From: an uncultured virus (IMG/VR IMGVR_UViG_3300022661_000087)
Taxonomy: Duplodnaviria; Heunggongvirae; Uroviricota; Caudoviricetes
IMG/VR virus record: IMGVR_UViG_3300022661_000087
Length of the DNA stretch: 64,000 nt
Reading direction: 5' to 3' (one strand)
Shown: positions 2,932 to 17,621 of the stretch, piece by piece
Layout of the letters: each line of letters opens with the position of its first letter
Position numbering within the stretch: position 1 is the first letter of the stretch
Made by a program: the position numbers and the translations under genes
The notes under the pieces: generated by a model
The model's database searches: none
The model's input: the letters and a program-made list of their open reading frames with translations, nothing else
Told to the model about the DNA's origin: nothing

Positions 2932-3312
2932 TGGTATATACCTCTTTCTTTTCTTATTGTATTATTATTATACAAAAAAATTTTATAAAAATCAAATGGC
3001 CGTTCGGCCTTGATTTTTATAAAAAAATATGTTATAATATTAAAAAAACATATTTTTACCGGTCGGCCCGCGTATATGCGGGCGGTTTTTGTAGGACCGG
3101 TCGGCTCCCGACCGGGGCTCACTTTACGGGAAAATTAAGTGCATATGAAAAGTCGCTAGAAGTAGCAAAAAATTTGCATATGGGGTGTACCGGTCGGAAA
3201 ATCGGGCCTTGGCCTCCGTCCGCGGCCCGTTGAACCCCACCATTATTATACCATACCGGGCCGCACTTGTCAAGTGGTAAAATGAAAAAAAAATGAGACC
3301 CCTGCGGGGGTC

Positions 3313-3510
3313 TCACCACCAATTCGGACCGAGGTCATCCAGCGTATAGCGGTCTTCGACTTCCGCAATGTCATCGAAAAACTCGCCATCCTCGCAACAG
3401 TTACAGCAAGCCACATCGTCTGTGGTTTCCTGCCCCACATGGGTACACCGCATGCATCTATTTTCTGCGGTGGGCTTGGGGTTAATGAATCGGGTTTTCT
3501 TATTCTTCAT
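3313..3510 (-). CDS. Small Cys-rich acidic protein
   Basis: GAGGAGG RBS; CxxC...CCxCC. Confidence 0.6.
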   Translation of the reverse strand: MKNKKTRFINPKPTAENRCMRCTHVGQETTDDVACCNCCEDGEFFDDIAEVEDRYTLDDLGPNWW

Positions 3511-3637
3511 CCCAGTCATCCTCCTCACAGGGTGCTTTGCCGAAGCCATCGAAATGACAGCGGGGGTAATCTTCGTCCTCGTCCTGCCAGTAGTAGCCAC
3601 AGCCACTATCAGCACAGCCCAGATGCTTTTTGCTCAT
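3500..3637 (-). CDS. Small Cys-rich acidic protein (45 aa)
   Basis: MSKKHLGCADSGCGYYWQDEDEDYPRCHF; overlaps both neighbours. Confidence 0.55.
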   Translation of the reverse strand: MSKKHLGCADSGCGYYWQDEDEDYPRCHFDGFGKAPCEEDDWDEE

Positions 3638-3755
3638 TGCCTTTGTCCTCGCTTTCTTTGGGGTTGGTGTTGGATTCTTCTTGGCATCCGCATCTATCGC
3701 ATCGGCTTTCGTCAATGTCGGTGCGCCAGTAGTTATCACATTTCAGACAGTTCAT
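3609..3755 (-). CDS. Small Cys-rich protein (48 aa)
   Basis: Follows a promoter and the AAAGGAACTGATAC leader; MNCLKCDNYW...CDRCGC. Confidence 0.6.
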   Translation of the reverse strand: MNCLKCDNYWRTDIDESRCDRCGCQEESNTNPKESEDKGNEQKASGLC

Positions 3756-3859
3756 TGTATCAGTTCCTTTCCTTTGATGAACTCATTATAGCACATTCTT
3801 GGAGATTTGTCAATAGGTTTTTGAAAAATATTTTTCGCCGGGGTTTCCACTCCCTGCCT

Positions 3860-4465
3860 TTAGAAAGGCAGTTCGTGGTGTTCCGCCGCCCACTGGCAAG
3901 CGATTTTGTTGTATTCCTCTGTGATGGAAGGAATGTCGATGAAAGAGCGACTTGCCATGTAGTCCGCCATGTGAACACATCTGTCCACGCTGGTGAAAGG
4001 TCTGTCCTCTCGTTCAGTAGACCATTGACCCATGTGACTTTCAACTGCGTTCAGCAGAAGAAAATGGGGAGTAAAATCGAACACCTGTTCGCACCAACCT
4101 GCAAAAGCCTTGCTTGCGTTTCTTGCGTGGTTCTTGTATTCTGCCTTGTCAAACCAATCGACACCATACTTTGCGGTATCATGGATGATACAAGCCGCAA
4201 TTACGAAGTCCTTGTACTCGTCTTTCATGTAGGCGTAGGAACTCATGCGGAGCAGTTCTTCAGCGAACATCACAACCGCCTTGGTGTGACGAACCAGACC
4301 GCCGATGCCCTGCGAAAACTGGGGATGATACTTGCCAGAAGAGGAAGCACCATCTGTCCAGAAGTAGTCAGGGGTGGCTTCTTCCATGTAAGACTTGACC
4401 GCCATACGCAGGTCTTCATTGACAATCAGATTGATTTCACGCTCAAACAGTTTAATGGTTCTCAT
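3860..4465 (-). CDS. HD-domain phosphohydrolase
   Basis: ASSSGKYHP..GGLVRHT..IIHD..HMG..VHMAD motifs. Confidence 0.85.
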   Translation of the reverse strand: MRTIKLFEREINLIVNEDLRMAVKSYMEEATPDYFWTDGASSSGKYHPQFSQGIGGLVRHTKAVVMFAEELLRMSSYAYMKDEYKDFVIAACIIHDTAKYGVDWFDKAEYKNHARNASKAFAGWCEQVFDFTPHFLLLNAVESHMGQWSTEREDRPFTSVDRCVHMADYMASRSFIDIPSITEEYNKIACQWAAEHHELPF

Positions 4466-4551
4466 AGTAAATTACCCTTTCTTGTGGAGCACTCGCTCCC
4501 TTGATTACATACTTATTATAGCACAGACTTAATAATTTGTCAAGCACTTTT

Positions 4552-4722
4552 TTAATTTTCATTGGAAAAAGGAACACAAGCTAAAAGCTCATTAGACGCT
4601 AATTCGATAATGTATCGATACATGGTTGCATCGTCATGGAGAGTTCCCCCAAAAGATAAAACAGTATCAATAATAACTTTGTGCAATTCAGCTTTAGCCT
4701 TGCGCATTTCTTCTGCGGTCAT
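4552..4722 (-). CDS. Hypothetical protein (56 aa)
   Basis: GAGGTGAGG RBS, own promoter; MTAEEMRKAKAELHK. Confidence 0.55.
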   Translation of the reverse strand: MTAEEMRKAKAELHKVIIDTVLSFGGTLHDDATMYRYIIELASNELLACVPFSNEN

Positions 4723-4911
4723 TTGCCTCACCTCTTAGGATTAGTATACCACCAATTGCGGGAAAAATCAAGATGACAAACTGCACAAAAAATTCGATTG
4801 GAAATTTACGGGGACTAGTTATTTTGACGAATTCCGGGCGCCACACTCGTTGGCGCACGGCGCAAAAAAGCCCCTGCCCCACGAATTGGGGGCAGGGGGA
4901 GGAAGGGGTCA

Positions 4912-5280
4912 TCACTGGATGACCCTGAAGAACGCCTTGCGCTTCTCCTCGATGCGCTCGACAGACACACCAATCATGCCACGCACGATGGCGCTCACTC
5001 GCTGATTAGTCAGCTCTGCGCAGGCAGGCACTTCCTTAATCAGCTCAGTGATGGAGAACAGACGATTGGGGTCTGCGCTCATGTGGGACAGAATGGCTTC
5101 TGCCACACCAGCATTGGCGACCTGCTGGGCAGTAGGCTTCTTCTCAGCAGAGTTCTTCTTCGCCAGGAGTTCCAGCTCATGCTCGATGAACTCGACCAGC
5201 GCAAGGTTGGACTTGACCTCAGCCAGGGTCAGCAGGGTGTTGAAATGGTCCTTCTTAGTCAGCTTCTTAGTGTTTGCCAT
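4912..5280 (-). CDS. Winged-helix-like protein, paralog 1 of 3
   Basis: Shares HELELLAKKNSAEKKPTAQQ and PACAELTNQRVSAIVRG with 6447-6815 and 9485-9844. Confidence 0.8.
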   Translation of the reverse strand: MANTKKLTKKDHFNTLLTLAEVKSNLALVEFIEHELELLAKKNSAEKKPTAQQVANAGVAEAILSHMSADPNRLFSITELIKEVPACAELTNQRVSAIVRGMIGVSVERIEEKRKAFFRVIQ

Positions 5281-5958
5281 AGTATCAGTTCCTTTCTGGT
5301 TTTTTAGGGTTTTCCTTCCCTTGATTACATACTTATTATAGCACATGGTTTTGAGTTTGTCAAGAGGTTTTCAAAAAATATTCGCGACTATTTTTTTTAT
5401 TCCCACAGCATCCTTGCGCTCACTGGACTTGTTTCTGCCCCCTGCCTTGAGTCTACTCGCACCCTTTCGTTGCTCACCACTCACCCTAGTAGGGGGGAAT
5501 CTTGCGTAGGAGTTGTAGAGTTTCAATTCGCCTGTGTCTGTTTCCACCATCTGTTGCGGTCTTGCCTCGAAGGAGTTCCCCTCTTGATTACATACTCATT
5601 ATAGCACATCTTGTGCTGTTTGTCAAGTGGTTTTTCAAAAGTTTTTTGAAAAAGTTTCGGTGGTCTGATTGGTGGGACAATCTAACCCCTCTGCCCAACA
5701 TTTTTCAACCCTCTGCGCCGACCCATCTGCGGGGGTTTACTTCATCCCCTTGACACTACTAATTATAGCAGATTTTTAGGAAAATGCAAGTGGTAATGTT
5801 GTACAAATAATTGGGTAAAAAACTTGTTGAACTTGTGCATTTTGCCGAATACCGGGCCGCACATCTGTGTGCGGCCGGCCGATTTTTGTGCAAATTGCAC
5901 AAATTTAAATTTAATTTGGAAAAAATAACGAAAAAATCGCCCTTTTGGGGCGATTTTC

Positions 5959-6330
5959 TCAACTTTTTGGCTTGCGTTTCTGCACAAGCGTCAGTTCGTA
6001 GGCATTTTCACCAACTTTTAAGGCGATTTGACGCTCTTTATTGGTGATTTCGACCATTTCGTAGCCATTTTCAGCCAAAAACTGAGCAATTTCGGCAATT
6101 ATCGTGGCTTTTGTGGGGTTTTCCTTGCGTTTTCGCTCGGTTTTCTGCCCATTTGTCTGCCTTGTGCCAGTATTTGCGAATTTTTTGGCTTGCTTTTCGG
6201 CTTCAGGTGAGAGGTCAAAAGCCATTCGCTCACCTCTGTCGATTGCCTTGTCGTCTGCGATAATCTGTTCGGCTTCTTCTTTGGAGCATTTCAGATTTCG
6301 CATAATGCGTTCGACTTGACTTTCTGCCAT
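5959..6330 (-). CDS. Hypothetical protein, DDKAIDRG family paralog 1
   Basis: Similar to 9000-9359. Confidence 0.8.
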   Translation of the reverse strand: MAESQVERIMRNLKCSKEEAEQIIADDKAIDRGERMAFDLSPEAEKQAKKFANTGTRQTNGQKTERKRKENPTKATIIAEIAQFLAENGYEMVEITNKERQIALKVGENAYELTLVQKRKPKS

Positions 6331-6446
6331 TGGTTTACCCCCTTTCTGTACTTACAGTATAGCACATCTTGGGCGGTTTGTCAAGACCTTTTTTGAAATT
6401 CCGTGCCCCATTTTGGGGGGGCTATTGCCCCCCCTTGGGGAGTGGC

Positions 6447-6815
6447 TCAGCGAATGGCTCTGAAATAAGCCTTTCGCTTCTCTTCCACACGCTCCACAGA
6501 GGTGCCGATGAGACCACGCACGATTGCGGACACTCGCTGATTGGTCAACTCAGCACACGCAGGCACTTCCTTGATAACCTCAGTGATGGTAAAGAGGCGG
6601 TTGGGCTGGCTCTGGAGATGAGCCACGATGGCTTCGCCGATGGAAGCATTGGCGGTCTGCTGAGCAGTGGGTTTCTTCTCAGCGGAGTTCTTCTTGGCGA
6701 GCAACTCCAACTCGTGCTCGATGAACTCCACGAGCATTGCGTTCTCCGCAACAGCGGGGATAGCCTTGAGCATTGCAAACTTCTGAGCCTTGGTAATCTT
6801 CTGAGTAGTAGCCAT
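6447..6815 (-). CDS. Winged-helix-like protein, paralog 2 of 3
   Basis: Same motifs as 4912-5280. Confidence 0.8.
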   Translation of the reverse strand: MATTQKITKAQKFAMLKAIPAVAENAMLVEFIEHELELLAKKNSAEKKPTAQQTANASIGEAIVAHLQSQPNRLFTITEVIKEVPACAELTNQRVSAIVRGLIGTSVERVEEKRKAYFRAIR

Positions 6816-7149
6816 AGTATCAATTCCTTTCTGGTTTTTAAGACTGTCCTTGTCTTTGTGTATTTATTATATCATAGGTTGAGCGATTTGTCAAGAGGTT
6901 TTTTTGATTTTTTTGAAAATCTTTTTTGAACCTTTGGCTTTCTCTCTCCCTTTGATGTATTCATTATATCACATCTTTGGGGGTTTGTCAAGAGGTTTTT
7001 TTAAGTTTTTCAAACTTTTTTTCGGTCTGTCCGCTTGGGTCTCTCCCTTACTGACATAGATAGTATACCACATCCAAAAGCGAATTGCAATAGGCAAACT
7101 GCACAAATTACAGGAAAATTAAAAAGATTATTTTGTGCAACATTTCCTC

Positions 7150-7178
7150 TTGACAAATTGTGCGGGGCATGGTATAAT
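7150..7178 (+). promoter_or_regulatory. Antisense promoter facing a GC stem-loop
   Basis: TTGACA-N17-TATAAT; equivalents at 10404-10432, 14370-14398 and 16493-16521. Confidence 0.8.
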
Positions 7179-7230
7179 GGTAAATTCGGCCGGGCACAGT
7201 CGCGCCCGGGCCGCGCAAAAAGCGAGGGTT

Positions 7231-7509
7231 TTACTCCTCGCTTTTCACCAGCTTCCGCACTTCGCCCAGAAGCTTCTTGATTTGTGCCATCTTTTCGTAG
7301 TCGTCCACGCAGGTTTCGATGGTGTCCACCAGATGGTCAATTTCGCCATTCAGATTGGCTTCGTACTTGCGGAAGCAGACAGTATCTCTGCCATCGATGA
7401 AGATTTCGAGGGGTTCGCCCTCGCGGATGCCCATTGACCGACGGATTTCTCTGGGGATAACCACTCTGCCGAGGTCATCAACTCTGCGGATAATTCCAGT
7501 TGCTTTCAT
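7231..7509 (-). CDS. AbrB/SpoVT-family transcription regulator
   Basis: MKATGIIRRVDDLGRVVIPREIRRSMGIREGEPLEIF matches the SpoVT/AbrB N-terminus. Confidence 0.9.
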   Translation of the reverse strand: MKATGIIRRVDDLGRVVIPREIRRSMGIREGEPLEIFIDGRDTVCFRKYEANLNGEIDHLVDTIETCVDDYEKMAQIKKLLGEVRKLVKSEE

Positions 7510-7577
7510 TGTATCAGTTCCTTTCCTCTTGGATTGTCTTAATTATAGCACATTTGGTGGAGTTTGTCAAGACCTTT

Positions 7578-8057
7578 TTACAAGGTCTTGCTTTCACTCA
7601 CAAAGTATTTTGCATCGTATTTTTCAAGCAAGGCTTTGACTTTCTTGCTTTTCTCTTGGCTGTCGCAGTAAATGTTGAACACAGACCACTTGCCGATTTT
7701 GGGAATGTAGTTGCAAGGGATTTCTTCTGCGGTCAAATCACAATGCAGGCTTTTGGTGTAGGGGTCAAAGACAGTTGCTTCAATCTTCCAAAGCTTGTCC
7801 TTGCGTGCCTTTTCTTCAATGAGTTTTACCACATAGACACCCACCAAATTACACAGAGCCACAATTCCTGCTTTGAGGTAGAGGTCAAGTTCACACATTA
7901 AGTAAACAGTGACGATGGTGTACAGACCATAGGCAACCGCATTGATAACTGCGGCAGACACCTTTCCGCATTTAACAGTGGCGATAGATTTTACAGTTTG
8001 AATGATAACATTGGCGATGTTCAGAGCGATGAACACAATCAGCAATTTCGTATCCAT
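7578..8057 (-). CDS. Membrane protein, DUF5698/DUF2179-like
   Basis: Three hydrophobic N-terminal helices plus a small soluble C-terminal domain. Confidence 0.6.
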   Translation of the reverse strand: MDTKLLIVFIALNIANVIIQTVKSIATVKCGKVSAAVINAVAYGLYTIVTVYLMCELDLYLKAGIVALCNLVGVYVVKLIEEKARKDKLWKIEATVFDPYTKSLHCDLTAEEIPCNYIPKIGKWSVFNIYCDSQEKSKKVKALLEKYDAKYFVSESKTL

Positions 8058-8151
8058 TCACTTCACTTCCTTTCTGTGGTTATTATAGCACAAATCTCTC
8101 TGTTTGTCAATACCCTTTTGGAAATTATTTTTCCGGGCGGAGCCAAAGGGG

Positions 8152-8397
8152 TTAGAACCCCCTGGCATCCTTGTCGTTGTCCTTGGCAGGCATCGGCACC
8201 GCAGGAGTGGGAGCCTTTGGCTTGTTGATAATGGCATCCACCTGCTCATAGAGTGCGTAAGCCCTCTTGGACTTCTTGTACACCTTGCGGAGTTCGGAGT
8301 AGGTGAGGGAGTTGAACTGCTCGTCGGTCATAGTGACACCGACCTTGCTGAGCTTGTTGCGGATGGACTTGAGGGACATTTCATTGAACATTTTCAT
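8152..8397 (-). CDS. Basic hypothetical protein
   Basis: Promoter and conserved leader upstream. Confidence 0.7.
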   Translation of the reverse strand: MKMFNEMSLKSIRNKLSKVGVTMTDEQFNSLTYSELRKVYKKSKRAYALYEQVDAIINKPKAPTPAVPMPAKDNDKDARGF

Positions 8398-8492
8398 AGT
8401 ATCAGTTCCTTTCTTGTTTTCTGTAATTATTATAGCACACTTTTGGATGTTTGTCAATAGGTTTTTTGAAACTTTTTTTCTTTTGTGGGGAA

Positions 8493-8675
8493 TTAGTACC
8501 CCCCACAACCGCGGTAAGTGCGGAAGAGACTGTCAGCCTTTTCCTTGGTCATCGGACCGAACTCTTCGCAGTAGTAGCGGAAAGAGAGTTCATCCCAACA
8601 CTCGACCACACAATCACCGCCGTTGCAGTAGTTCTGCATTGCGTAGTCCATGAACTGCTTGTAAGTCATACCCAT
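8493..8675 (-). CDS. Hypothetical protein
   Basis: AAGGAGG RBS and own promoter. Confidence 0.7.
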   Translation of the reverse strand: MGMTYKQFMDYAMQNYCNGGDCVVECWDELSFRYYCEEFGPMTKEKADSLFRTYRGCGGY

Positions 8676-8999
8676 TGTTGTTACCTCCTTGACTTTGTAC
8701 CCTTATTATACACCCGATAATGGGAAATGTCAATAGTCAATTTGCACAAAGATTTCGCCCCAAAAATTGTTGAAACTGGTTATTTCGCCGAAAAACCGGC
8801 GCTGGCGTACGTCAGCGCGCGGCCGAATTTTTGTGCAAAATGACGAAGACCCAAGGGCGCCCCCCTGGGTCTTTTCTCGGCTGTTTTGTTTTAGTACCAT
8901 ACCCCAGGGTTGGGCGCCTTCCCCCTAGTGGTTTACCTCCAGACGATGACAGCACACCGCCAATGGAATGGGGCCGATTGGCTCGACCCCTTAGGAGCC

Positions 9000-9359
9000 T
9001 TAGGAACGAGGGCAGGCAAGTGTGACCTTGTACTTCGTTCCATTGTGGATGAACAAGAACTCGCGTTCGGGGTTGTTGATGGTGAAATCTTCCACACCCA
9101 AAACTCGCAGACCATCCATCATTGCGGAGCAGATTTCAGCCTTTTCAGGCTTGGCTTTCTTCTCTCGCTTCACTGGGGTGGTGCTGACCTTGCGCTCGGC
9201 TTGTCTTGCCTTTTTTGCGCCTTTCTCAAGTTCGGGGTCAAGCTCAAACATCTTTGCGCCCCTGTCGATTGCTTTGTCATCCTCAATCAACTGGATTGCT
9301 TCCTCTCGGCTGATGCCGAGGCTTGCCATGTGCTTGGCAATTAACTTTTCATCAAGCAT
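9000..9359 (-). CDS. Hypothetical protein, DDKAIDRG family paralog 2
   Basis: Similar to 5959-6330. Confidence 0.8.
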   Translation of the reverse strand: MLDEKLIAKHMASLGISREEAIQLIEDDKAIDRGAKMFELDPELEKGAKKARQAERKVSTTPVKREKKAKPEKAEICSAMMDGLRVLGVEDFTINNPEREFLFIHNGTKYKVTLACPRS

Positions 9360-9484
9360 TGACTCACTTCCTTTCTGTGATTATAGTATAGCACAGACAG
9401 AGGGATTTGTCAAGTGCTTTTTGAAAATTTTTTCGCCGGGGTCAAGGTGGGCAGGGGTTACCCCCTGCCCTTGGGGGAGTAGGC

Positions 9485-9844: not shown

Positions 9845-9974
9845 AGTATCAATTCCTTTCGGTTTTAACGACTTGAACCTGTCGATGAATTTATTTGTAA
9901 GAGGTTTTCCTCTTTACATACTTATTATAGCACATCTTGATTTGTTTGTCAAGAGTTTTTTTTAATTTTTTTTT

Positions 9975-10205: not shown

Positions 10206-10517
10206 CCCTTATTGTATCACACTTTAAGGGGTTTGTCAAGGGGTTTTCTCAATTTTTTTTGAGATTTTTTTTTCGCCCTTGGGGGCAGGCTCACCTATCT
10301 CCCCTTGACAATGATAGTATACCACAGACCGCACCAAAAGTCAATAGGTAATAATGCACAAAAACAGGAATTCAAATCAATCAAACTTTGTGTAACTTTT
10401 CTCTTGACAAATTGCTGGCGGTGTGGTATAATGGAAATTCCGGCGCCCACATCCGAGGGCGCCGCGCCCAAAAATTGAAATGAAAAAGCCACCCCTTGCG
10501 GGATGGCTCTTGGTTTG

Positions 10518-10760: not shown

Positions 10761-10848
10761 GGTATCATTTCCTTTCTGGTGTTTGGGATTTTCCTTTCCC
10801 TTTGTTGTATTTATTATAGCACACTCTTGGGGGTTTGTCAAGGGTTTT

Positions 10849-11256
10849 TTACATTCTTTCAGAAAAATATTTGAAACCCTTTTCGCAGATTTCGAGATAA
10901 ACCTCTCGGCTTACTCTCACCCACTCTTCGCTTTTTTCTACCTTGCCTTTGCAAACTGCATACAAAATTGCGTGGCACTGCCATTCGGACTTGCCGACCA
11001 TGGGGCGGGGAATGGTACAAAAATCAATGTGGAACATTCCAGGGTTGGTGGTGAGATAATCTTTCATTCTGCGTTGCAGGTTGTAGCTTTTACCAACCTT
11101 TACCAAATAGATTTCTTCATGGGTAAAGGGATTGAAATTGGTGCTACCTACAAGGTACAAACCTTCGCTTTCGGGTGCAGAGAAGCGCAGGGGGTTTGCT
11201 TCGTTAATAAATGCGGGAGTATTTCGCATAGCTTCCAAATGTTCTGCCCAAGTCAT
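10849..11256 (-). CDS. GIY-YIG/T5orf172-like nuclease
   Basis: GLYLVG...LVKVGKSYNLQRRM...EW. Confidence 0.65.
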   Translation of the reverse strand: MTWAEHLEAMRNTPAFINEANPLRFSAPESEGLYLVGSTNFNPFTHEEIYLVKVGKSYNLQRRMKDYLTTNPGMFHIDFCTIPRPMVGKSEWQCHAILYAVCKGKVEKSEEWVRVSREVYLEICEKGFKYFSERM

Positions 11257-11345
11257 TACTGTCAGTTCCTTTCTTGTTTTCTGAGTTAATTATAGCACAT
11301 GATTTTGAATTTGTCAATACCTTTTTTCGCCCGGGAGGGCAGATT

Positions 11346-12005
11346 TTAGAATCTGCCCTTGACCACTTGGAAGCGATAGGCGGAATCGCCCTTGTGAACA
11401 TTGCGAGTAAACTTGCGGTGAGTTGCCCAAACCGCACGCAGAATCTGCATTTCGATTTCACAATCTGCGAGGGCGGTGTGTTCCTCGACGAACTCAATGT
11501 CTCCGCTGATGAAGCGGTAGCAGATTTCTGCGGTCATCTGAACGTTTCCGCTCTTGGTTACAAAGCCATTTTCACAGCAGAATTTGTTGTACTTGGTGTA
11601 CTTGCCGATGGTCTCGAAAAATGCCTGCCAAGTGTCGATGAATTCCATTCCCTCGATACACTCAGCAACGAAAGTCTTGTTGAAGTCAAAACCGCTGTTG
11701 TGGGCGCAGGCGCAGGACACATTGTTTTCAGCAAGCCACGCAGAGAAGATTTCGCTTGCCTCTGCTTCGTTGTAGCAGATAATAGTTGCAGGGTCGCGGA
11801 GCAGGTCGCGGTAGTAGTCTTTTTTGAATTTGCCATAGAACGCAGAATCCAAAAGTAGGTTGCCGATGACCACGATGTTGATTCTGCTGATTTCTGCTCT
11901 CTTGGTGAAAGCAATGCCAGCGCAGTGGTAGGTAGGGCAGTGCGCCTGAGAAGCACCGCCGAGGGTTTCAGTGTCGATAATTGCAAAAGTTTTTTCAGTA
12001 AACAT
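11346..12005 (-). CDS. DEDDh 3'-5' exonuclease
   Basis: IIDTET, AHNSGFD and HTALAD motifs. Confidence 0.85.
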   Translation of the reverse strand: MFTEKTFAIIDTETLGGASQAHCPTYHCAGIAFTKRAEISRINIVVIGNLLLDSAFYGKFKKDYYRDLLRDPATIICYNEAEASEIFSAWLAENNVSCACAHNSGFDFNKTFVAECIEGMEFIDTWQAFFETIGKYTKYNKFCCENGFVTKSGNVQMTAEICYRFISGDIEFVEEHTALADCEIEMQILRAVWATHRKFTRNVHKGDSAYRFQVVKGRF

Positions 12006-12089
12006 TGGTATCATTTCCTTTCACTTGATAAATTTATTATAGCACAGATTGTTTGATTTGTCAATACCTTTTTTTAATTTTTCCGGGGA

Positions 12090-12494
12090 TTAGCCTTGCT
12101 GTAAGGCTACTCCCCTTTCACGCAGGTATTCTGCGAACTCGTCCGCAGGAAGTTTGTCCATGAGGGTGGACATGGGCAGGTGGGAGACTTCTTTGGTGTA
12201 GTTCCACACGCACACCTCTTTGAAGTTCCTCTTGGTGACAGTATAGTGGTTCATGCCACATTTCACCAATACCTTGGGGGTCTTGAACAGACCGATGTAG
12301 GCTTCTGCATTTCTTACCTTGTTTTCACAGACCGCTTCAAAAAAGCTCTCGAAAGTGTCGTAGTAAGTGCGGTTGGTGCGGTCGAGGGATTCTTCCGCAT
12401 CGAGCAGGTGCAGGTGCCACCAAATAGAAGTTTCTTCAAAATCTCTGCGAGGAGACAGAGAGATGGATTGTCCGCAATCGTAAACCAGTTTCAT
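12090..12494 (-). CDS. Hypothetical protein
   Basis: Promoter and conserved leader upstream. Confidence 0.7.
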   Translation of the reverse strand: MKLVYDCGQSISLSPRRDFEETSIWWHLHLLDAEESLDRTNRTYYDTFESFFEAVCENKVRNAEAYIGLFKTPKVLVKCGMNHYTVTKRNFKEVCVWNYTKEVSHLPMSTLMDKLPADEFAEYLRERGVALQQG

Positions 12495-12664
12495 GTGTAT
12501 CAGTTCCTTTCCTTTGTTGATACTATTGTATCACACCTTTTGGGATTTGTCAACTGTTATTTTGCACAAATAAATTGCACGGAAAATTGTTGAAACTGGT
12601 TATTCTGACGAAAATCGGCGCGCCTGGACCGTGAGCGCGCCGCCAAAAACAAACGACTGCTTTT

Positions 12665-12934
12665 TCAGCAGTCGTAAGTATAACAACCTGCGAAGGGGTC
12701 GAACCCGCATTCGTCCGCATCGGGCTCGTCCTCGCTTTCGCCCTGGGTCTGTTCCAGGTCGCGGTATCCTGCAAGGGTGTATTCCTCGTGCCACTGGTAA
12801 TGGTTTCCGCAGTGGTCGCACTCGCCAACCTTAAAGAGGGTCACAGTGGTGTTGTCCACCTCAATGTCGAGAGTATCGAACTCAACAACCTCGCCCCCGC
12901 AAGTGGGGCAAACTACAATTCCAGTTTTCAGCAT
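12665..12934 (-). CDS. Zinc-ribbon acidic protein
   Basis: CPTCG...CDHCG. Confidence 0.65.
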   Translation of the reverse strand: MLKTGIVVCPTCGGEVVEFDTLDIEVDNTTVTLFKVGECDHCGNHYQWHEEYTLAGYRDLEQTQGESEDEPDADECGFDPFAGCYTYDC

Positions 12935-13147
12935 TCTTCATCATCCTCCAATCTTTCTTTGATTGCTTCAACGATTATCTTGCCGACCTTGACAGCCATC
13001 ATCAAGGCGAATGCTCCGACAAAGCCAACCAATGCCCAGCCGATTTCTTCGGGGATTGCGCAAATCATTTCTAACATTTTTATCAGTTCCTTTCTTCTTT
13101 GTGTCTTAATTATAGCACATCAATTGCCGTTTGTCAAGAGGAAATTC

Positions 13148-13600
13148 TCAGATTTCTCTGAGAATTTCCAAGATGTTCTGCACATCGTAGGCTCTGCCTG
13201 TCCAGTTCGTTCTGTTGCGTTCTTCATCGTCGAACAGAATGTCGAGAGGATTGTTGCAGAAGTTCTGCTTCGGAGTGCCATAGGGAACGATGTGGATTTC
13301 GTTCCAGTTCACGCTCGGCAGGTGCTTTCTCAGCCAGTTCAGCTTGACTTCGGTAACTGCTTCGTTGTATTCAGCAGTTCCACTTTTGCTCAACCAAGAG
13401 ATAACTGCGAGGTTGTAGCCGTTCCGCTGAAGTGCGTTCAGCTTGCGAGCCAGTGCGGAGAGGTGGAGCAGAGGTCTTGCGTTTGCGTAGGGGAAAGTGT
13501 CACCTGCGATGAGGTATTCGAGCCAGTTCTCTACACCATAGAGGTCAGCGATTGTGCCGTCCATGTCGAAGTTAATTGTGATGTTCATCTGCTTTGCCAT
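13148..13600 (-). CDS. HAD-superfamily 5'(3')-nucleotidase-like protein
   Basis: FDMDGTIAD motif I and ILFDD motif IV. Confidence 0.8.
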   Translation of the reverse strand: MAKQMNITINFDMDGTIADLYGVENWLEYLIAGDTFPYANARPLLHLSALARKLNALQRNGYNLAVISWLSKSGTAEYNEAVTEVKLNWLRKHLPSVNWNEIHIVPYGTPKQNFCNNPLDILFDDEERNRTNWTGRAYDVQNILEILREI

Positions 13601-13690
13601 TTGTATCAGTTCCTTTCCTTTTTGTACCTTAATTATACACCCAAAACCGTGATTTGTCAATACCTTTTTTGAAAAAAGGGAAAGTTTTTT

Positions 13691-14164
13691 TTACTTTCCC
13701 TTTTTCATTTCTCTTGCCCGCTTCTGTGCCTTGTGGAGCACATCCACATTGGTCAGGCTTGCGTTTTCGTACTTGACCTGATACTGAACGCCACCGATTT
13801 CCACATCACCGCAGTAGTCAAAGCGGACATGGTCGGGAGTGTACTCACCCAGACCGCAAGCCTTGTGCAGATAGGCTTCGCACTTGTGACCCTTGTTCTT
13901 GTAAGGAATGGCTTCAAATTCAGCCTTGGTCATGATGGGGGTTGCACCCTTGGCAATCAGCTTATCCTTTTCGGATACGCTGATGTACATCTTGAATTTC
14001 TGCTGTCCGCCGTTCTTGGAGGACTCAAATTCTTCGTGTGCCCAACGAGGAGCGATGTGCTTGCAGTTGTAGATGTAGATGATACCCTTGCGCTCGAAGA
14101 AAATCAGAGTGCGGTCAGCGCCAGTCAGCTTGTTGTAGTAGCGGAAGAAATTACCCTTAGTCAT
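13691..14164 (-). CDS. Hypothetical protein, possible PD-(D/E)XK-like fold
   Basis: GDVEIGGVQYQVK segment; own promoter. Confidence 0.6.
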   Translation of the reverse strand: MTKGNFFRYYNKLTGADRTLIFFERKGIIYIYNCKHIAPRWAHEEFESSKNGGQQKFKMYISVSEKDKLIAKGATPIMTKAEFEAIPYKNKGHKCEAYLHKACGLGEYTPDHVRFDYCGDVEIGGVQYQVKYENASLTNVDVLHKAQKRAREMKKGK

Positions 14165-14459
14165 TGTTATTATCTCCTTTTCAGTTCCTTTTTGTATCTT
14201 AATTATAACACCAGTTTCCCGGTTTGTCAAGAACTTTTTTTCATTTTCTTGAACTTTTTTTTGATTTAGTGGTCTCTCTCAACCACAAGAACATTGTATC
14301 ACATCCGGAATAGAAAGTCAAGCACAATTTTAGGAAAAACAACTATTTATTTTTTGTGCAAATTGCCTATTGACAAATTGCTGGGGCTGTGGTATAATGG
14401 AAATAACGCGCGCCTGGGCCGTGGGCGCGCGACCGAAAAAGCAAAATGGAAAAAGCGCC

Positions 14460-14699
14460 TTAGTAGTAAGGCGCTTCGATTTCCAGTATCTCGGTTTGAA
14501 TGAGTGTAAAATGTGCCCTGAACCGACACCCGCACCCGCAAATGTAATCGTCTTTTTTCTCTCTGCGGTTGCTTGTATTGTCCTGGTACACCAGTTCGGA
14601 TTGGGCACTACTCCCGCAGTTAGGACATCTAATGCGAGGGTCACGCAATTGTGCTTGCCACTCTCGTGCTATTTCTGCTGCTGTTTTCATTGTTCTCAC
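14460..14699 (-). CDS. Small zinc-ribbon protein
   Basis: CPNCG...CGCG. Confidence 0.6.
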   Translation of the reverse strand: MRTMKTAAEIAREWQAQLRDPRIRCPNCGSSAQSELVYQDNTSNRREKKDDYICGCGCRFRAHFTLIQTEILEIEAPYY

Positions 14700-14735
14700 C
14701 TCTTGGCATTATTATAACATGGTTTGGGGATTTTG

Positions 14736-14960
14736 TCAACCCCCGCAAGCACATTTTTTTTCGTAATGTTCTCTAACAAGGAGAGCATCCCGCACTCGCT
14801 TCTGGTTGAAATCTTCTTTGTGAATTACTGTGCAATAGTAGTATTTTGTGCGGAAAATGGGCCAATTGGGATGAATTATCTTTCGATAGACTACATGAAC
14901 ATAGTCTTCGCCGAGCTTCCATGTGGCTTCGTACTCACCATCTGCCCCTTTAATAATCAT
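14736..14960 (-). CDS. Hypothetical protein
   Basis: Start overlaps the stop of the upstream gene. Confidence 0.55.
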   Translation of the reverse strand: MIIKGADGEYEATWKLGEDYVHVVYRKIIHPNWPIFRTKYYYCTVIHKEDFNQKRVRDALLVREHYEKKCACGG

Positions 14961-15112
14961 CCATTATCACCCCTTTTGAATTTCTGTCTGTTGTATTTCT
15001 TCTTGCTTTCTACCACAGAGCCACGCTTGCGAAAGTGGAGATACTGCTGAAGTTCTTCTCCCTCTTTCTTGAACATTCTGCGGTCGATTGTGTTTTTCTT
15101 TTTCTTACTCAT
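14957..15112 (-). CDS. Small highly basic protein
   Basis: GAGG RBS; Lys/Arg-rich. Confidence 0.6.
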   Translation of the reverse strand: MSKKKKNTIDRRMFKKEGEELQQYLHFRKRGSVVESKKKYNRQKFKRGDNG

Positions 15113-15174
15113 TTCGTTTACCTCTTTTCTTTTTGTAATTAAATTATACCATAGATTTAGGGATTTGTCAACCC

Positions 15175-15501
15175 CTAAATCCAATTATTTTCACAGTCCC
15201 ATGCTTTTGCCCGTCTGATGATTTCAGAGTAACCAGCAGGAGGATAACCACCAGTAGTTTCGTAGAACATCTTGCAGGCAATCTTCCATCTTGCAGGGTA
15301 GGCGGTGACAAGAATGTTGCTCTTGGCATCCATTACCATTAAGATACCAGTGGAAGTCAAGCAGTTTCTCTTTCCTCTGTAAATTGTGGTGCAAATGATT
15401 TCGCCGAAGCCTAACTCTCTATCCATTTTTACAAGTCTTTCTCTGCGTTCGGTGTAGCAGTGGTCGGTGAAACTCACGGTGATGCTCATGCTCTTTAACA
15501 T
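15175..15501 (-). CDS. Hypothetical protein (ends at TAG, with a TAA six codons later)
   Basis: GAGGAG RBS and own promoter. Confidence 0.65.
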   Translation of the reverse strand: MLKSMSITVSFTDHCYTERRERLVKMDRELGFGEIICTTIYRGKRNCLTSTGILMVMDAKSNILVTAYPARWKIACKMFYETTGGYPPAGYSEIIRRAKAWDCENNWI

Positions 15502-15568
15502 TTGATTTACTCTCCTCTCTTTTTGTATCTTAATTATAACACGGGAAAGGGGTTTTGTCAACCCCTTT

Positions 15569-16009
15569 TCAAAAAATTTTTTCGCCAATGTTTGTCACAA
15601 CTGTGGCTTCAATCCACCGCACGCAAATGCCCTTGCTTTCCAAAAGGCGATAGTATTGCAGGTCGTTGTCGAAATTTTGTTCGAAGTCTGCGATTGCCTT
15701 AAAGTTTGCGAGGATGGGGTTCTTGTGGTAGCGGAACTCAAGACGAGCACGCCAAGCCTCTTTGCTCTGCGAGGGTGCGAGGATAACAAAGGGAATGTTG
15801 TTGTTCATGCAGTATTCAATCACCACACGATGAGCGGAGATGAATACATTCTTGTCAGTAGCGAGGGCAACCGCCGTCCGCACATAGTTTTCTTCCCATC
15901 CTGCGACCTTGACAAATGCGGAGCTGTCGAGGTCAACAGTAGTATTGGGGTTATTTCTACAGTAGGTAGATTTTCCACTACCCTGATAGCCACAGTAAAT
16001 CATTTTCAT
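15569..16009 (-). CDS. P-loop kinase/NTPase
   Basis: Walker A GYQGSGKST. Confidence 0.75.
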   Translation of the reverse strand: MKMIYCGYQGSGKSTYCRNNPNTTVDLDSSAFVKVAGWEENYVRTAVALATDKNVFISAHRVVIEYCMNNNIPFVILAPSQSKEAWRARLEFRYHKNPILANFKAIADFEQNFDNDLQYYRLLESKGICVRWIEATVVTNIGEKIF

Positions 16010-16060
16010 TTCAGTTCCTTTCCTTTTGTACCTACATTGTATCACAGAGAAAGGCTTTTG

Positions 16061-16384
16061 TCAAGCCTTTTCTGCGAGAATTTCCAAAAGTTCATAGCCA
16101 GAAAGGAAAGTATTTCCTGCGAGGTGGTAGGCTCGGCAGTGCTCAGCCAGTTCTTCCCTTGCTCTGTCGTAGCTACGCAGAGCGGAAACCAGTACCCATT
16201 TATCCTCGGTTACATCGCCCGCAAACATCTTGTATTCTGCGGACTCTTGGGGCAACATAGCCATTGCCTTCTGTCTGCGGTTGATGACTCTCACACAGTA
16301 CTCAATCTTGTCCTTTGCATTGCGAGTAGCGATGACGAGTTCGTCTCTCTTGGTCTCTTCGGCAGTCTTGGTAATCTTCTTCAT
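16061..16384 (-). CDS. Hypothetical helical protein
   Basis: AAAGGAG RBS and own promoter. Confidence 0.7.
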   Translation of the reverse strand: MKKITKTAEETKRDELVIATRNAKDKIEYCVRVINRRQKAMAMLPQESAEYKMFAGDVTEDKWVLVSALRSYDRAREELAEHCRAYHLAGNTFLSGYELLEILAEKA

Positions 16385-16596
16385 GGTGTTTAGCTCCTTT
16401 GTTCTTTTGTTGTACTTAGTATACCACACGGAGACCGATTTGTCAATACCTTTTGGGAAAAATAATTATTTATTTTTTTTCTAATTTTCCTCTTGACAAA
16501 ATGGCTGGGATGTGTTATACTGGCAATTAGGGCGCGCCAGGACCGTTGGCGCGCCTATGGCGGGATTCGTCACATTGCACAATTAAAGGGTGTGCC

Positions 16597-16818
16597 TTAC
16601 TCTTGGCACACCCTCATCAGCAGTCTCTCATAGGACACACCTGCTACCTTACACAGCACACGCAGGTTGTCTCTCACCATCAGCTTCTCTGCGTAGGTGA
16701 TGTCCTCGTTGTCCTTGTTCAGTACCATGATGATGTACTTGTACTGATGGCTTGCCTGCACCTCAGGCTTTAGCTCTCTTACTGTGCTCAGCATCTTGTT
16801 GATAGGTCTCTTGTTCAT
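16597..16818 (-). CDS. Hypothetical protein
   Basis: GAGGAGG RBS; terminator overlaps the stop. Confidence 0.65.
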   Translation of the reverse strand: MNKRPINKMLSTVRELKPEVQASHQYKYIIMVLNKDNEDITYAEKLMVRDNLRVLCKVAGVSYERLLMRVCQE

Positions 16819-16835
16819 TGTCTTGTCCTCCTCTA

Positions 16836-16991
16836 TTAGTTCTTGTTGACAGCGATGATAGTGGCAATAGCAGCTACGCCAAAGGCTACGACTAGAGCCA
16901 CAAGAGTGATACCCAGCCACTCAGGACAAGTAGTAGTATTGTCAAGGTTGCTGTTAGCAATCCACATAGCGATGTTGTTAGAAATGGTCAT
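16836..16991 (-). CDS. Small single-pass membrane protein
   Basis: AAAGGAG RBS; WLGITLVALVVAFGVAAIATIIAV. Confidence 0.6.
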   Translation of the reverse strand: MTISNNIAMWIANSNLDNTTTCPEWLGITLVALVVAFGVAAIATIIAVNKN

Positions 16992-17196
16992 TGTTGTTAT
17001 CTCCTTTACTCTGTGAGGTTGTGTCCCTCTCTCTTTGTGTCTTTATTATAGCATTACGGGAGCTTTTTGTCAAGAGTTTTTTTGCTTATTTACGCAACTT
17101 TTTTTTAGCACCCCCTACAGTATGCCCCACTAGGGGACCTGACGCCTGTGCTCGGTGGCTACTACTACATAGTATAATAGAGTAAGGCTGTGTACC

Positions 17197-17478
17197 TTAC
17201 TCTACATCTACTACTCTGTCATCATAGATAGTATCACTGCCCATGGCTAGCATGGTTAGCACTACCCTTGTGCCTACACATGGTACAGTGTCACCCTCTA
17301 CATCATAGCACCACACATTGCCTGTGGTGTCCTCTGCGCTGATGGTGTTACCCTCTACCTCTACTACCACAGCTTCTCTTGTGTACCTATCATTAAGCTG
17401 TGCTTGACCTAGTGCATTGAAGGTCACTACCAGTAGTATAGCACACAGCACACACAGTACCTTCTCACTCATTGTCAT
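17197..17478 (-). CDS. Membrane-anchored or secreted small protein
   Basis: Hydrophobic N-terminus; first gene of the leftward early region. Confidence 0.65.
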   Translation of the reverse strand: MTMSEKVLCVLCAILLVVTFNALGQAQLNDRYTREAVVVEVEGNTISAEDTTGNVWCYDVEGDTVPCVGTRVVLTMLAMGSDTIYDDRVVDVE

Positions 17479-17621
17479 TACCTCACTGTTCCTTTGTTGT
17501 ATCTACAGTATACCACATTACAGGATGTTTGTCAATAGGTAAGATGCACAAATGTGTAGAACTTTTTTTGTGTAGGGTATTATTGCATGGCAGCTAGGGC
17601 CGCGCCGCACGTGCACGGCCC

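What the first reader, a model, noticed from the sequence alone, without database searches (positions are those of the whole stretch)
3203..17621. Ten co-oriented GC-rich stem-loops with variable stems and a conserved CGT loop end divide the early region every 1-2.2 kb
Seen: hairpins at about 3203-3229, 4834-4860, 5852-5878, 7187-7213, 8796-8822, 10441-10464, 12616-12642, 14407-14431, 16528-16557 and 17597-17621. Stem sequences differ but stay paired (GCGCCA/TGGCGC, GGCCGCA/TGCGGCC, CGGCGCCC/GGGCGCCG, CGCGCGCC/GGCGCGCG). The 7-8 nt loops mostly end in CGT (CCTCCGT, CACTCGT, GGACCGT twice, GGGCCGT, CGCACGT; variants CATCTGT, ACAGTCGC, ACATCCGA). Most lie between the terminator of one minus-strand gene block and the first promoter of the next, so they are distinct from the terminators. 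Inference: a structure-specific signal in ssDNA/cruciform DNA or a small RNA, such as cassette recombination sites, nick or priming sites, stepwise DNA-entry signals, or decoy RNAs. I do not recognise this element; it is the best candidate for an undescribed system here.
Basis: partly seen in the sequence, partly recalled or inferred. Interest (0 to 1): 0.9.

Follow-up and report, generated by a model that had tools for sequence, protein, structure and literature searches.

The report
Promoter-coupled hairpin cassettes of a phage
A conserved GC-rich hairpin, often sitting right behind a perfect promoter that points against the genes, marks the borders between blocks of early genes in a group of uncultured gut phages; it looks like a transcription boundary device that resembles, but differs from, the promoter/stem-loop cassettes known from T4-like phages.

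Summary
The hairpins are real. Eight of the ten belong to one element family. The site at 3203 is a diverged copy, and 17597 is doubtful. A covariance model finds the eight on the + strand only, and nowhere else in the 105.8-kb record. It finds 2-9 co-oriented copies in the early regions of five related phage records. Across 78 distinct copies, 8 of 9 stem pairs show compensatory changes.

Four of the eight window copies start 7-8 nt after a (near-)perfect sigma-70-type promoter that points against the early genes. In relatives, a second consensus promoter on the gene strand often ends 2-5 nt from the other side of the hairpin, giving a face-to-face pair. Copies without the antisense promoter usually carry a T-run on the gene strand, like a terminator.

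The best reading is a transcription-level boundary cassette that also yields short hairpin-capped RNA. It most resembles the PeSL promoter/stem-loop cassettes of T4-type phages, but it differs in the antisense and convergent promoters and in the conserved hairpin. No expression data with strand or end information could be obtained, so the mechanism is inferred. It matches no Rfam family. I found no evidence for nicking, priming or a dedicated recombinase.

The parts
3203..3229 (+). Imperfect GC hairpin, probably a diverged family copy. A gene-strand promoter (3273-3245) fires into it.
   Evidence: The model scores only 10.1 bits, E 1.5. The flanks align with relatives.
4834..4860 (+). Family hairpin with no antisense promoter.
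   Evidence: Model hit 4828-4869, 21.6 bits, E 9.4e-5. Perfect 6-bp stem.
5852..5878 (+). Family hairpin with no antisense promoter.
   Evidence: Model hit 5846-5887, 18.7 bits. Perfect 8-bp stem.
7187..7213 (+). Family hairpin directly behind antisense promoter P+.
   Evidence: Model hit 7180-7221, 14.9 bits, E 0.027..
8796..8822 (+). Family hairpin with no antisense promoter. The scan calls it terminator-like on the minus strand.
   Evidence: Model hit 8789-8831, 17.5 bits. Terminator-like row 8818-8799.
10441..10464 (+). Family hairpin directly behind antisense promoter P+.
   Evidence: Model hit 10433-10475, 20.4 bits. Perfect 8-bp stem.
12616..12642 (+). Family hairpin (seed copy) with no antisense promoter.
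   Evidence: Model hit 12609-12651, 48.9 bits.
14407..14431 (+). Family hairpin (seed copy) directly behind antisense promoter P+.
   Evidence: Model hit 14399-14441, 52.5 bits. Perfect 8-bp stem.
16528..16557 (+). Family hairpin (seed copy) directly behind antisense promoter P+.
   Evidence: Model hit 16523-16565, 40.2 bits. Perfect 9-bp stem.
17597..17621 (+). GC-rich hairpin at the right edge of the GC-richer region. Family membership is doubtful.
   Evidence: Folds at -20.1 kcal/mol. The model scores 9.3 bits, E 3.2.
7150..7178 (+). Antisense promoter P+ (12 of 12 consensus, TG extension). Its -10 box ends 8 nt before the stem.
10404..10432 (+). Antisense promoter P+ (12 of 12).
14370..14398 (+). 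Antisense promoter P+ (12 of 12).
16493..16521 (+). Antisense promoter P+ (11 of 12).
3245..3273 (-). Gene-strand consensus promoter (12 of 12) between terminator 3292-3317 and hairpin 3203. This is the same layout as in relatives G001-G003.
   Evidence: plus my reading.
8767..8795 (+). Conserved promoter-less upstream module that stands in the place of P+. It is A-rich next to the stem.
   Evidence: It is 75% identical to 12541-12647 over 108 nt. Best promoter score is 6 or less.
12587..12615 (+). The same promoter-less upstream module.
3292..3317 (-). Ordinary terminator (T1) of the block to the right.
4871..4898 (-). T1 terminator next to hairpin 4834.
5929..5961 (-). T1 terminator next to hairpin 5852.
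7218..7245 (-). T1 terminator next to hairpin 7187. It has T-runs on both sides.
8846..8873 (-). T1 terminator next to hairpin 8796.
10487..10508 (-). T1 terminator next to hairpin 10441.
12653..12675 (-). T1 terminator next to hairpin 12616.
14452..14477 (-). T1 terminator next to hairpin 14407.
16587..16614 (-). T1 terminator next to hairpin 16528.

Best explanation
The hairpin is the core of a repeated boundary cassette of about 100-150 bp that acts on transcription of the early region. The early genes run leftward on the minus strand, and almost every gene has its own consensus host-type promoter.

At each block border, in gene-strand order, the cassette holds:
1. an ordinary, variable terminator (T1);
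2. the conserved GC hairpin;
3. either a perfect promoter pointing back against the genes (P+, four of eight copies here) or an A-rich stretch that gives the hairpin a U-run on the gene strand.

I propose that the hairpin, as RNA, stops leftward transcription that leaks past T1. It would do so either as a second intrinsic terminator, or as a pause hairpin backed by polymerase bound at or firing from the head-on promoter. This keeps the early blocks as separate transcription units. Where P+ is present, the same hairpin becomes the 5' cap of a short antisense transcript. In relatives, a gene-strand promoter that starts inside the stem restarts transcription with a shortened hairpin.

Shown:
- the hairpin family and its covariation;
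- its fixed orientation against the genes;
- the exact promoter spacings;
- the asymmetry of the T-runs;
- the repeat nature of the cassettes.

Inferred:
- that the promoters fire;
- where the transcripts start and end;
- that termination or interference occurs.

As a by-product, the repeated cassettes give homology for swapping gene blocks between phages.
For: Family and structure:
- The model hits 8 of the 10 sites, on the + strand only, and nowhere else in the window or record.
- It gives 8, 7, 6, 2 and 9 co-oriented, clustered hits in five related records.
- 95 hits give 78 distinct rows. 90.5% of cells are paired, 8 of 9 pairs carry compensatory changes, 0 of 500 shuffles reach the observed score, and sliding the partners drops pairing to 29-42%.

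Orientation:
- In the window and four relatives, near-consensus promoters and RBS+ATG signals lie on the strand opposite the element: 31 vs 5, 25 vs 4, 21 vs 3 and 27 vs 3 promoters.

Coupling to promoters, in 89 distinct contexts:
- 35 have both P+ and the gene-strand promoter, 17 have P+ only, 14 have the gene-strand promoter only, and 23 have neither.
- The P+ -10 box ends 7-8 nt from the stem in all copies that score 11 or more. The gene-strand -10 box ends 2-5 nt from the other side.
- P+ scores are bimodal, at 10-12 or at 8.5 and below.
- Of 33 distinct sequences behind the P+ pattern in viral contigs, 29 carry the hairpin by my reading of the printed sequences.
- Of 30 such places in genome contigs, 21 carry it by the model at E up to 0.05.

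Terminator-like asymmetry:
- A T-rich tract (at least 4 of 8) follows the hairpin on the gene strand in 79 of 87 copies.
- At least 5 of 8 T occur in 23 of 36 copies without P+ and in 20 of 51 copies with P+.
- On the other strand a T tract occurs in 33 of 87 copies, and 29 of those take it from the gene-strand -10 box.

Position: T1 lies to the right of each of the eight family hairpins in the window. In the wider set a T1 could be scored beside 73 of 87 copies.

Precedent: PeSL cassettes combine consensus early promoters with stem-loops. One subclass has the stem-loop just downstream of the -10 box, and the stem-loop was shown to terminate (PMC2839356, section 14 read).
Against: - T1 already looks like a competent terminator on the gene strand. 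An A-run precedes it in 71 of 73 scored cases. A second stop is therefore not obviously needed.
- With P+ present, the gene-strand tail right after the stem is A-rich before it turns T-rich, which makes a poor intrinsic terminator.
- In 35 of 89 contexts the two promoters face each other with about 37-40 bp between their -10 boxes. They should exclude each other, and a pure boundary role does not explain why both are kept.
- In the 14 copies with only the gene-strand promoter, that promoter is followed at once by a hairpin and a strong T-run. That looks like a tiny RNA gene rather than a restart.
- Three stem pairs and the loop CG are conserved in sequence, which ordinary terminators do not need.
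- No stranded reads or transcript ends could be obtained. The RNA runs were available only as contigs.
- The wobble test did not resolve the strand: 5 G-U/U-G against 8 C-A/A-C.
Confidence: 0.4

Rival explanations
1. Small-RNA genes. The selected product is the short hairpin RNA itself. It would be made from P+ (plus sense, hairpin at the 5' end). In relatives it would also, or instead, be made from the gene-strand promoter, with the hairpin plus a U-run giving an RNA of about 30-40 nt. The RNA would act as a cis-antisense regulator of the overlapping 5' or 3' ends, or in trans as a decoy or sponge for a host or phage RNA-binding factor or for RNA polymerase.
For: - Consensus promoters stand at fixed distance on one or both sides in 66 of 89 contexts, and P+ scores are bimodal.
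- The only near-consensus promoters on the antisense strand of five early regions are those at the hairpins.
- No ORF with a ribosome site follows P+ (my reading).
- Three stem pairs and the loop are conserved in sequence while the other pairs covary. That pattern is typical of a protein-bound RNA hairpin.
- In 21 of 35 face-to-face copies the plus-sense hairpin is followed by a T tract.
- Earlier notes of this scan report similar promoter-plus-hairpin or face-to-face cassettes in other phages' early regions. These are unchecked leads.
Against: - 23 of 89 contexts have no promoter on either side, so those copies make no such RNA.
- In the 'P+ only' layout, which is the window's layout, the hairpin has no plus-sense T tract (0 of 16). 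The next hairpin, T1, has one in only 4 of 13 cases, no more often than in copies without P+ (7 of 16). The RNA would therefore have no defined end.
- The two strands give complementary loops, not identical ones.
- There is no expression evidence.
Confidence: 0.27
2. Nothing more than a second, tandem intrinsic terminator of each minus-strand block. On this reading the adjacent promoters are incidental products of duplication and inversion of promoter cassettes.
For: - The stem is GC-rich, and a gene-strand T tract (at least 4 of 8) follows in 79 of 87 copies.
- The site lies right after T1.
- Hairpin 8796 is called terminator-like by the scan.
- Any RNA hairpin is expected to show covariation.
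Against: - In relatives G001-G003 a consensus gene-strand promoter lies between T1 and the hairpin in 18 of 20 copies. There the hairpin is not simply behind the terminator.
- T1 stems are unrelated to one another, whereas this hairpin keeps sequence features across genomes.
- P+ is kept at 12 of 12 with exact spacing, or else is wholly absent.
- Nominal loops of 7-11 nt and weak tails in the P+ copies are atypical of terminators.
Confidence: 0.13
3. A DNA-level, structure-specific site. The hairpin or cruciform in DNA would be read by a phage enzyme as a recombination, nick, priming or DNA-entry pause site that delimits gene cassettes.
For: - Base pairing is conserved rather than sequence. 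The wobble count favours neither RNA strand (5 against 8).
- Relatives differ in gene content between the sites, and RNA/DNA contigs join one cassette to another: 5810>10397, 7107>10381, 7109>14346.
- The early region carries T5-like early functions, NT5C and T5orf172.
Against: - Stems of 8-9 bp are short for cruciform extrusion (general knowledge).
- Joints are just as frequent at ordinary gene promoters, for example 3833>10228, 5296>10199 and 12041>15546. The cassettes are repeats of 100 bp or more at 75-78% identity, so plain homologous recombination is enough.
- There is no Y1/HUH transposase in the record, which is 56% complete.
- A DNA site does not predict the exact spacing to the -10 boxes on both sides.
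Confidence: 0.07

Closest known systems
PeSL cassettes (promoter-early stem-loops) of T4-type phages. Arbiol et al. 2010, PMC2839356: abstract, section 14 and passages read. Comeau et al. 2014, PMC4122927: abstract read.
   Same: - Both are repeated intergenic cassettes in a plastic early region full of small genes.
- Both combine a consensus sigma-70-type early promoter with a GC-rich stem-loop. One described subclass has the stem-loop just downstream of the -10 box.
- In PeSLs the stem-loop is taken as a terminator or attenuator for upstream transcription.
- Both provide homology for shuffling of gene modules.
   Different: - Here the conserved promoter points against the genes and drives no gene.
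- In relatives two consensus promoters face each other across the hairpin at fixed spacing.
- A separate, variable terminator stands beside the hairpin.
- The hairpin is one homologous family with covarying stems and conserved positions, rather than G-runs paired with C-runs.
- The phages show no detected kinship to T4. Of the 17 ORFs scanned outside the early block, 12 have no Pfam family.
- Mini-circles and terminator activity were not tested here.
Face-to-face promoter modules. These include coliphage 186 pR/pL and P2 Pe/Pc, IS10 RNA-IN/RNA-OUT (all recalled, and named in earlier notes of this scan), and RnaG/icsA of Shigella (PMC2879508, search listing only).
   Same: - Two strong promoters converge over a few tens of bases.
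- The transcripts overlap at their 5' ends.
- A stem-loop lies in the overlap.
- The expected effects are promoter occlusion, collision or antisense pairing.
   Different: - Those are single-copy switches that control a defined gene. This element is repeated 6-9 times per genome.
- No start codon lies in the overlap.
- The window itself has only the antisense member of the pair. None of the eight family copies has the gene-strand promoter.
Rho-independent terminators, tandem or bidirectional.
   Same: - The stem is GC-rich.
- A T-rich tract follows on the gene strand in most copies.
- The site lies at the 3' end of transcription units.
   Different: - The element lies downstream of another terminator.
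- It is conserved in sequence and orientation across genomes.
- Its loops are long.
- The tail is weak where P+ is present.
- Promoters abut it at fixed distance.
5'-terminal stabiliser stem-loops of bacterial and phage mRNAs (recalled, no call).
   Same: The hairpin would lie within a few nucleotides of the predicted 5' end of transcripts from P+ and from the gene-strand promoter.
   Different: Known stabilisers head coding mRNAs. Here P+ heads no gene, and about a quarter of the copies have no promoter at all.

Membership tests
PeSL cassettes of T4-type phages | Consensus sigma-70-type early promoter inside the cassette. | tested here: met
   P+ scores 12/12 at 7150, 10404 and 14370, and 11/12 at 16493. 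52 of 89 contexts have P+ and 49 of 89 have a gene-strand promoter.
PeSL cassettes of T4-type phages | Adjacent stable stem-loop. Its position relative to the promoter is variable and includes 'downstream of the -10'. | tested here: met
   The stem starts 7-8 nt after the P+ -10 box and 2-5 nt after the gene-strand -10 box. The definition was read.
PeSL cassettes of T4-type phages | Repeated between small early ORFs of a plastic region. | tested here: met
   There are 8-10 copies between blocks of small minus-strand genes. Gene order is mosaic in relatives. The cassettes are 75-78% identical repeats.
PeSL cassettes of T4-type phages | Promoter co-directional with the genes and followed by the Shine-Dalgarno sequence and start codon of the next gene. 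| tested here: not met
   P+ is antisense to all early genes and heads no ORF. The gene-strand promoter of relatives is separated from the next gene by that gene's own promoter.
PeSL cassettes of T4-type phages | Stem-loop terminates transcription, and recombination between cassettes gives indels and mini-circles. | not testable with these tools
   Only contig joints between cassettes and between ordinary promoters were seen. No assay was possible.
Rho-independent terminator (gene strand) | GC-rich stem followed at once by a U-run. | tested here: inconclusive
   At least 5 T in 8 occur in 23 of 36 copies without P+ and in 20 of 51 with P+. Among the 6 window copies scored, 3 reach 5 T.
Rho-independent terminator (gene strand) | Short apical loop. 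| tested here: inconclusive
   Nominal loops are 7-11 nt. An inner A-U and C-G pair closes them to 4-6 nt in 67% of cells.
Any described RNA family (Rfam 15) | Match to a curated covariance model. | tested here: not met
   The window gives 0 matches at gathering score. Region 2000-18500 gives 4 chance-level matches at E up to 1, none at a hairpin.
Cis-antisense 5'-overlap modules (IS10 RNA-IN/RNA-OUT type, recalled) | Convergent promoters whose transcripts overlap at their 5' ends. | tested here: inconclusive
   Met in 35 of 89 contexts in relatives. Met in 0 of the 8 family copies in the window.
Cis-antisense 5'-overlap modules (IS10 RNA-IN/RNA-OUT type, recalled) | The overlap covers the ribosome site or start codon of the target. 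| tested here: not met
   In three cassettes of G002 the next start codon lies more than 150 nt further on, behind its own promoter.
REP/RAYT or IS200/IS605-type DNA hairpin sites | Cognate Y1 (HUH) transposase encoded in the genome. | tested here: not met
   PF01797 gives no match in the 105.8-kb record. The controls gave matches in 6 of 14 genomes. The record is only 56% complete.
Integron attC sites | Integron integrase, and promoter-less cassettes bounded by attC. | not tested
   No integrase search was run. The cassettes here are not promoter-less, since nearly every gene has its own promoter.

The most novel reading that the evidence does not exclude
The cassettes may be a new kind of phage early non-coding device. 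Face-to-face or antisense consensus promoters would fire into a conserved hairpin to make many copies of tiny 5'-triphosphate hairpin RNAs, from either strand. Alternatively they would load and park host RNA polymerase at regular 1-2 kb intervals. The purpose would be to capture or sponge a host factor (RNA polymerase, an RNase or an RNA-binding defence protein). Or the rightward promoters would act as a relay that reels the DNA into the cell by transcription, while the leftward early genes fire behind it. This would be a T7-like entry principle (recalled) adapted to an early region that is read the other way.
Probability: 0.2. Interest if true: 0.8.

Novelty: new variant of a known kind. Interest (0 to 1): 0.55.

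Why it matters
- It defines, with a usable covariance model, a conserved regulatory element of a widespread but uncultured group of large gut phages. These contigs are up to about 200 kb. They are mostly binned with Clostridia MAGs, which is only a weak hint of host.
- It shows that promoter/stem-loop boundary cassettes, so far described for T4-type phages, recur in an unrelated lineage in a more elaborate form. Here there are perfect promoters that point against the genes, or pairs of promoters that face each other across a covarying hairpin.
- If the boundary reading is right, these are compact natural transcription insulators.
- If the RNA-product reading is right, they are a family of very abundant early phage small RNAs of unknown target.
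- Either way, they mark the points at which early gene blocks are exchanged between phages.

Tried and rejected
- Megablast of the early region and of 20-44 kb against the phage collection gave no usable relative: nothing, and one 178-nt match.
- Rfam gave nothing at gathering or E-value thresholds.
- RNAalifold on a plain MAFFT alignment predicted no pairs, because loop lengths differ and shift the register. I solved this by seeding a model on 11 copies with the same register.
- Wobble asymmetry, meant to tell which strand is the RNA, was unresolved at 5 G-U/U-G against 8 C-A/A-C.
- I tested whether T1 also terminates P+ transcripts. A plus-sense T tract follows T1 in 4 of 13 'P+ only' copies and in 7 of 16 copies with neither promoter, so there is no enrichment.
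- Sequencing runs: four runs (three labelled RNA, one guessed) were laid, but all were contigs. No strand, start, end or level could be read. Contig cover and gaps are not used as evidence.
- The search for a Y1 transposase gave none.
- Look-ups of earlier notes by place and by sequence were empty.
- CRISPR-repeat mimicry (RNA anti-CRISPR), a tRNA-arm mimic and CsrA-type GGA loops were considered from memory. I dropped them because the flanks and loops show no such conserved motif across copies (my reading). No formal test was run.
- N4-type hairpin promoters and single-strand origins were considered from memory and dropped, because ordinary double-strand consensus promoters explain early transcription here.
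- Single-hairpin folding z-scores are weak, at -1.0 to -4.5. The case rests on covariation and position, not on energy.

Full report
**Setting.** The window is bases 2160-66159 of a 105,768-base virus record, judged 56% complete.
- Positions 2.2-17.9 kb have 43-48% G+C, against 29-41% in the rest of the window.
- This stretch holds small genes on the minus strand only, and almost every gene has its own promoter and ribosome site.
- A consensus scan of 2000-18500 found 65 promoter-like sites, against 19.9 +/- 4.1 in shuffles. Of these, 25 match the consensus at 12 of 12 positions: 22 on the minus strand and 3 on the plus strand.
- Only 4 of 32 early proteins pass a Pfam cut-off: HD, MazE/AbrB-like, T5orf172 and NT5C.
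- Twelve of the 17 ORFs scanned outside the early block have no family. The phage is far from anything characterised, and megablast against the phage collection found nothing useful.

All ten inverted repeats exist.
- Seven have perfect GC-rich stems of 6-9 bp.
- The region has 14 such hairpins, against 1.07 +/- 1.02 in 200 Markov simulations.
- Each hairpin folds at -14.6 to -23.6 kcal/mol on either strand. Single z-scores are modest, so energy alone proves little.

**One element family.**
- A plain alignment of 27 copies keeps the 3' arm and a loop CG in register, but not the 5' arm, so RNAalifold saw nothing.
- A covariance model seeded on 11 same-register copies finds eight of the ten sites at E 4.5e-16 to 0.027. 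All are on the + strand. It finds nothing else in the window or the record.
- Sites 3203 and 17597 score at noise level. The 3203 site lies in a stretch that aligns with relatives and is probably a diverged copy.
- Five related records have 8, 7, 6, 2 and 9 hits. Within each record the hits are co-oriented and clustered in a GC-richer early region.
- Over 33 sources there are 95 hits and 78 distinct rows. 90.5% of cells pair, 8 of 9 pairs have compensatory changes, no shuffle out of 500 reaches the score, and slid partners pair at 29-42%. The alignment is fitted to the model and leans towards it. However, the stems are plainly different sequences that stay complementary.
- Three pairs are almost invariant, as is the loop CG.

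- In the window, four hairpins (7187, 10441, 14407, 16528) start 7-8 nt after a plus-strand promoter that matches the consensus at 12, 12, 12 and 11 of 12 positions. These point against all the genes and head no ORF.
- Searching the promoter pattern in viral contigs gave 62 loci with 33 distinct downstream sequences. By my reading, 29 of these carry a GC hairpin with a different stem.
- In genome contigs, 21 of 30 such places carry the hairpin by the model at E up to 0.05. Four hairpin-less control loci gave no adjacent hit.
- Across 89 distinct contexts, 35 have this antisense promoter (P+) together with a second consensus promoter on the gene strand. That second promoter's -10 box ends 2-5 nt from the other side of the hairpin. 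A further 17 have P+ only, 14 have the gene-strand promoter only, and 23 have neither. P+ scores are bimodal.
- Counting only the five early regions that were found through the model and not through the promoter pattern, P+ is present in 19-20 of 36 copies.
- The near-consensus promoters on the antisense strand of the relatives' early regions number 5, 4, 3 and 3. That is about as many as the hairpin-linked P+ copies found there (6, 4, 3 and 2-3). In the window all four antisense promoters scoring 11 or more of 12 abut a hairpin.

**Which way does it work?**
- The flanks are asymmetric. On the gene strand a T-rich tract follows the hairpin in 79 of 87 copies. It is strongest where P+ is missing: at least 5 of 8 T in 23 of 36 such copies, and a mean of 6.1 T in the copies with only the gene-strand promoter.
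- On the other strand a T tract appears almost only where the gene-strand -10 box supplies it.
- The variable terminator T1, to the right of the hairpin, is built for the gene strand. An A-run precedes it in 71 of 73 cases. It is not enriched for a plus-sense T tract when P+ is present.
- Wobble pairs do not favour either strand.
- Sequencing runs that hold relatives were available only as contigs. They show joints between cassettes and between ordinary promoters, which means mosaic gene order. They give no strands or ends.

**Reading.** About three chances in four, this is an RNA-level element coupled to transcription start and stop, and not a DNA-cutting site. Within that, I commit at 0.4 to a boundary or insulator cassette.
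- Leaked leftward transcription would be stopped at the hairpin, either by its U-run or, where the U-run is replaced by P+, by the head-on promoter.
- P+ transcripts would begin with the hairpin.
- In relatives, the gene-strand promoter would start inside the stem and so escape the full hairpin. This is the logic proposed for one PeSL subclass.
- The trade-off between U-run and P+ is the main support.
- The main difficulties are a competent T1 beside the hairpin, the mutual exclusion of the face-to-face promoters, the copies where a promoter is followed at once by a terminator, and the conserved hairpin positions. These difficulties feed the small-RNA rival (0.27).
- A bare tandem terminator (0.13) does not explain a promoter lying between T1 and the hairpin in 18 of 20 copies of G001-G003.
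- A DNA-level site (0.07) does not predict the promoter spacing. It also has no enzyme candidate.

**Comparison with known systems.**
- The nearest described thing is the PeSL cassette of T4-type phages (PMC2839356 section 14 and passages read; PMC4122927 abstract read). The element meets three of its defining features and fails one, namely a promoter co-directional with and heading the next gene. The activity features could not be tested.
- It also works somewhat like face-to-face promoter switches and 5'-overlap antisense modules (recalled; RnaG paper seen as a listing only). However, it is multi-copy and covers no start codon.
- Earlier notes of this scan describe promoter-plus-hairpin or face-to-face cassettes in other phages. 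I did not check them.
- Searches of the paper library for face-to-face promoters with hairpins, and for host-takeover early regions with stem-loops or antisense, found no description of this element.

**Verdict.** This is a real, conserved and undescribed variant of a known kind of phage regulatory cassette. Its mechanism is inferred, not shown.

Noticed in passing
window 2000-18500: There are 25 promoters that match the sigma-70 consensus at all 12 positions, mostly with a TG extension: 22 on the minus strand and 3 on the plus strand. Nearly every small early gene has its own promoter. The promoter/RBS cassettes are 60-90 bp repeats at about 80-85% identity.
   Followed up: partly
window 2200-17900; relatives L097, L100, L101, L102: The early region is a G+C island of 43-48%, against about 29-41% in the rest of the window. 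The same holds in relatives, at 42-53%. I have no explanation for this.
   Followed up: no
window about 4775, 5885-5903, 7095-7140, 8745, 8830, 12555-12580, 14350, 16575, 17545: A TGCACAA/TTGTGCA motif, sometimes as an inverted pair, lies in the cassettes between P+ and the next block's first promoter. In relatives a TTCGGGA-like motif lies about 40 nt upstream of P+. These are candidate operator sites.
   Followed up: no
window 2962-3090: An 84-bp palindrome (76% match) carries back-to-back promoters: plus strand at 3010-3038 and minus strand at 2995-2967. The plus-strand promoter is followed by hairpin 3066-3083 and a T-run. This is another possible tiny plus-strand transcription unit.
   Followed up: no
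window 5371-5750 and 9960-10210: These are promoter-driven stretches with no convincing ORF. The two depth bins that hold them (5306-5856 and 9714-10264) are the highest in three of the four runs laid and among the highest in the fourth. The runs are contigs, so depth is a poor measure. They are candidate abundant non-coding early RNAs.
   Followed up: partly
window 120-300 and 950-1010: Iteron-like direct repeats (GTTAAAAAATTAGAC-like) flank a small HTH-like gene at 333-749, whose Pfam matches fall below the curated cut-offs. The region is AT-rich and could be an origin or control region.
   Followed up: no
window 17620-17720: A TG-rich, low-complexity stretch (GTGTAT-type repeats) lies right after the last hairpin, at the edge of the GC-richer region.
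   Followed up: no
window 4919-5371, 6454-6902, 9503-9866; 6328-6845, 9357-9873: There are paralogous early genes: three copies of a protein of about 120 aa, and two copies of another, at 68-72% nucleotide identity. This shows duplication of whole blocks.
   Followed up: partly
window 13148-13600, 10849-11256, 19785-20597: The early region encodes an NT5C-type deoxynucleotidase and a T5orf172-domain protein, which recalls T5 pre-early functions (recalled). A FolD-like dehydrogenase/cyclohydrolase lies just outside the region.
   Followed up: no
L111-L140 (genome contigs): Contigs that carry the P+-hairpin unit sit mostly in MAG bins labelled Clostridia, Eubacteriales, Acutalibacteraceae or Oscillospiraceae. 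A few are labelled Treponema, Elusimicrobiaceae or Bacteroidales. They are probably phage contigs binned with, or near, their hosts. This is only a weak hint of host.
   Followed up: partly
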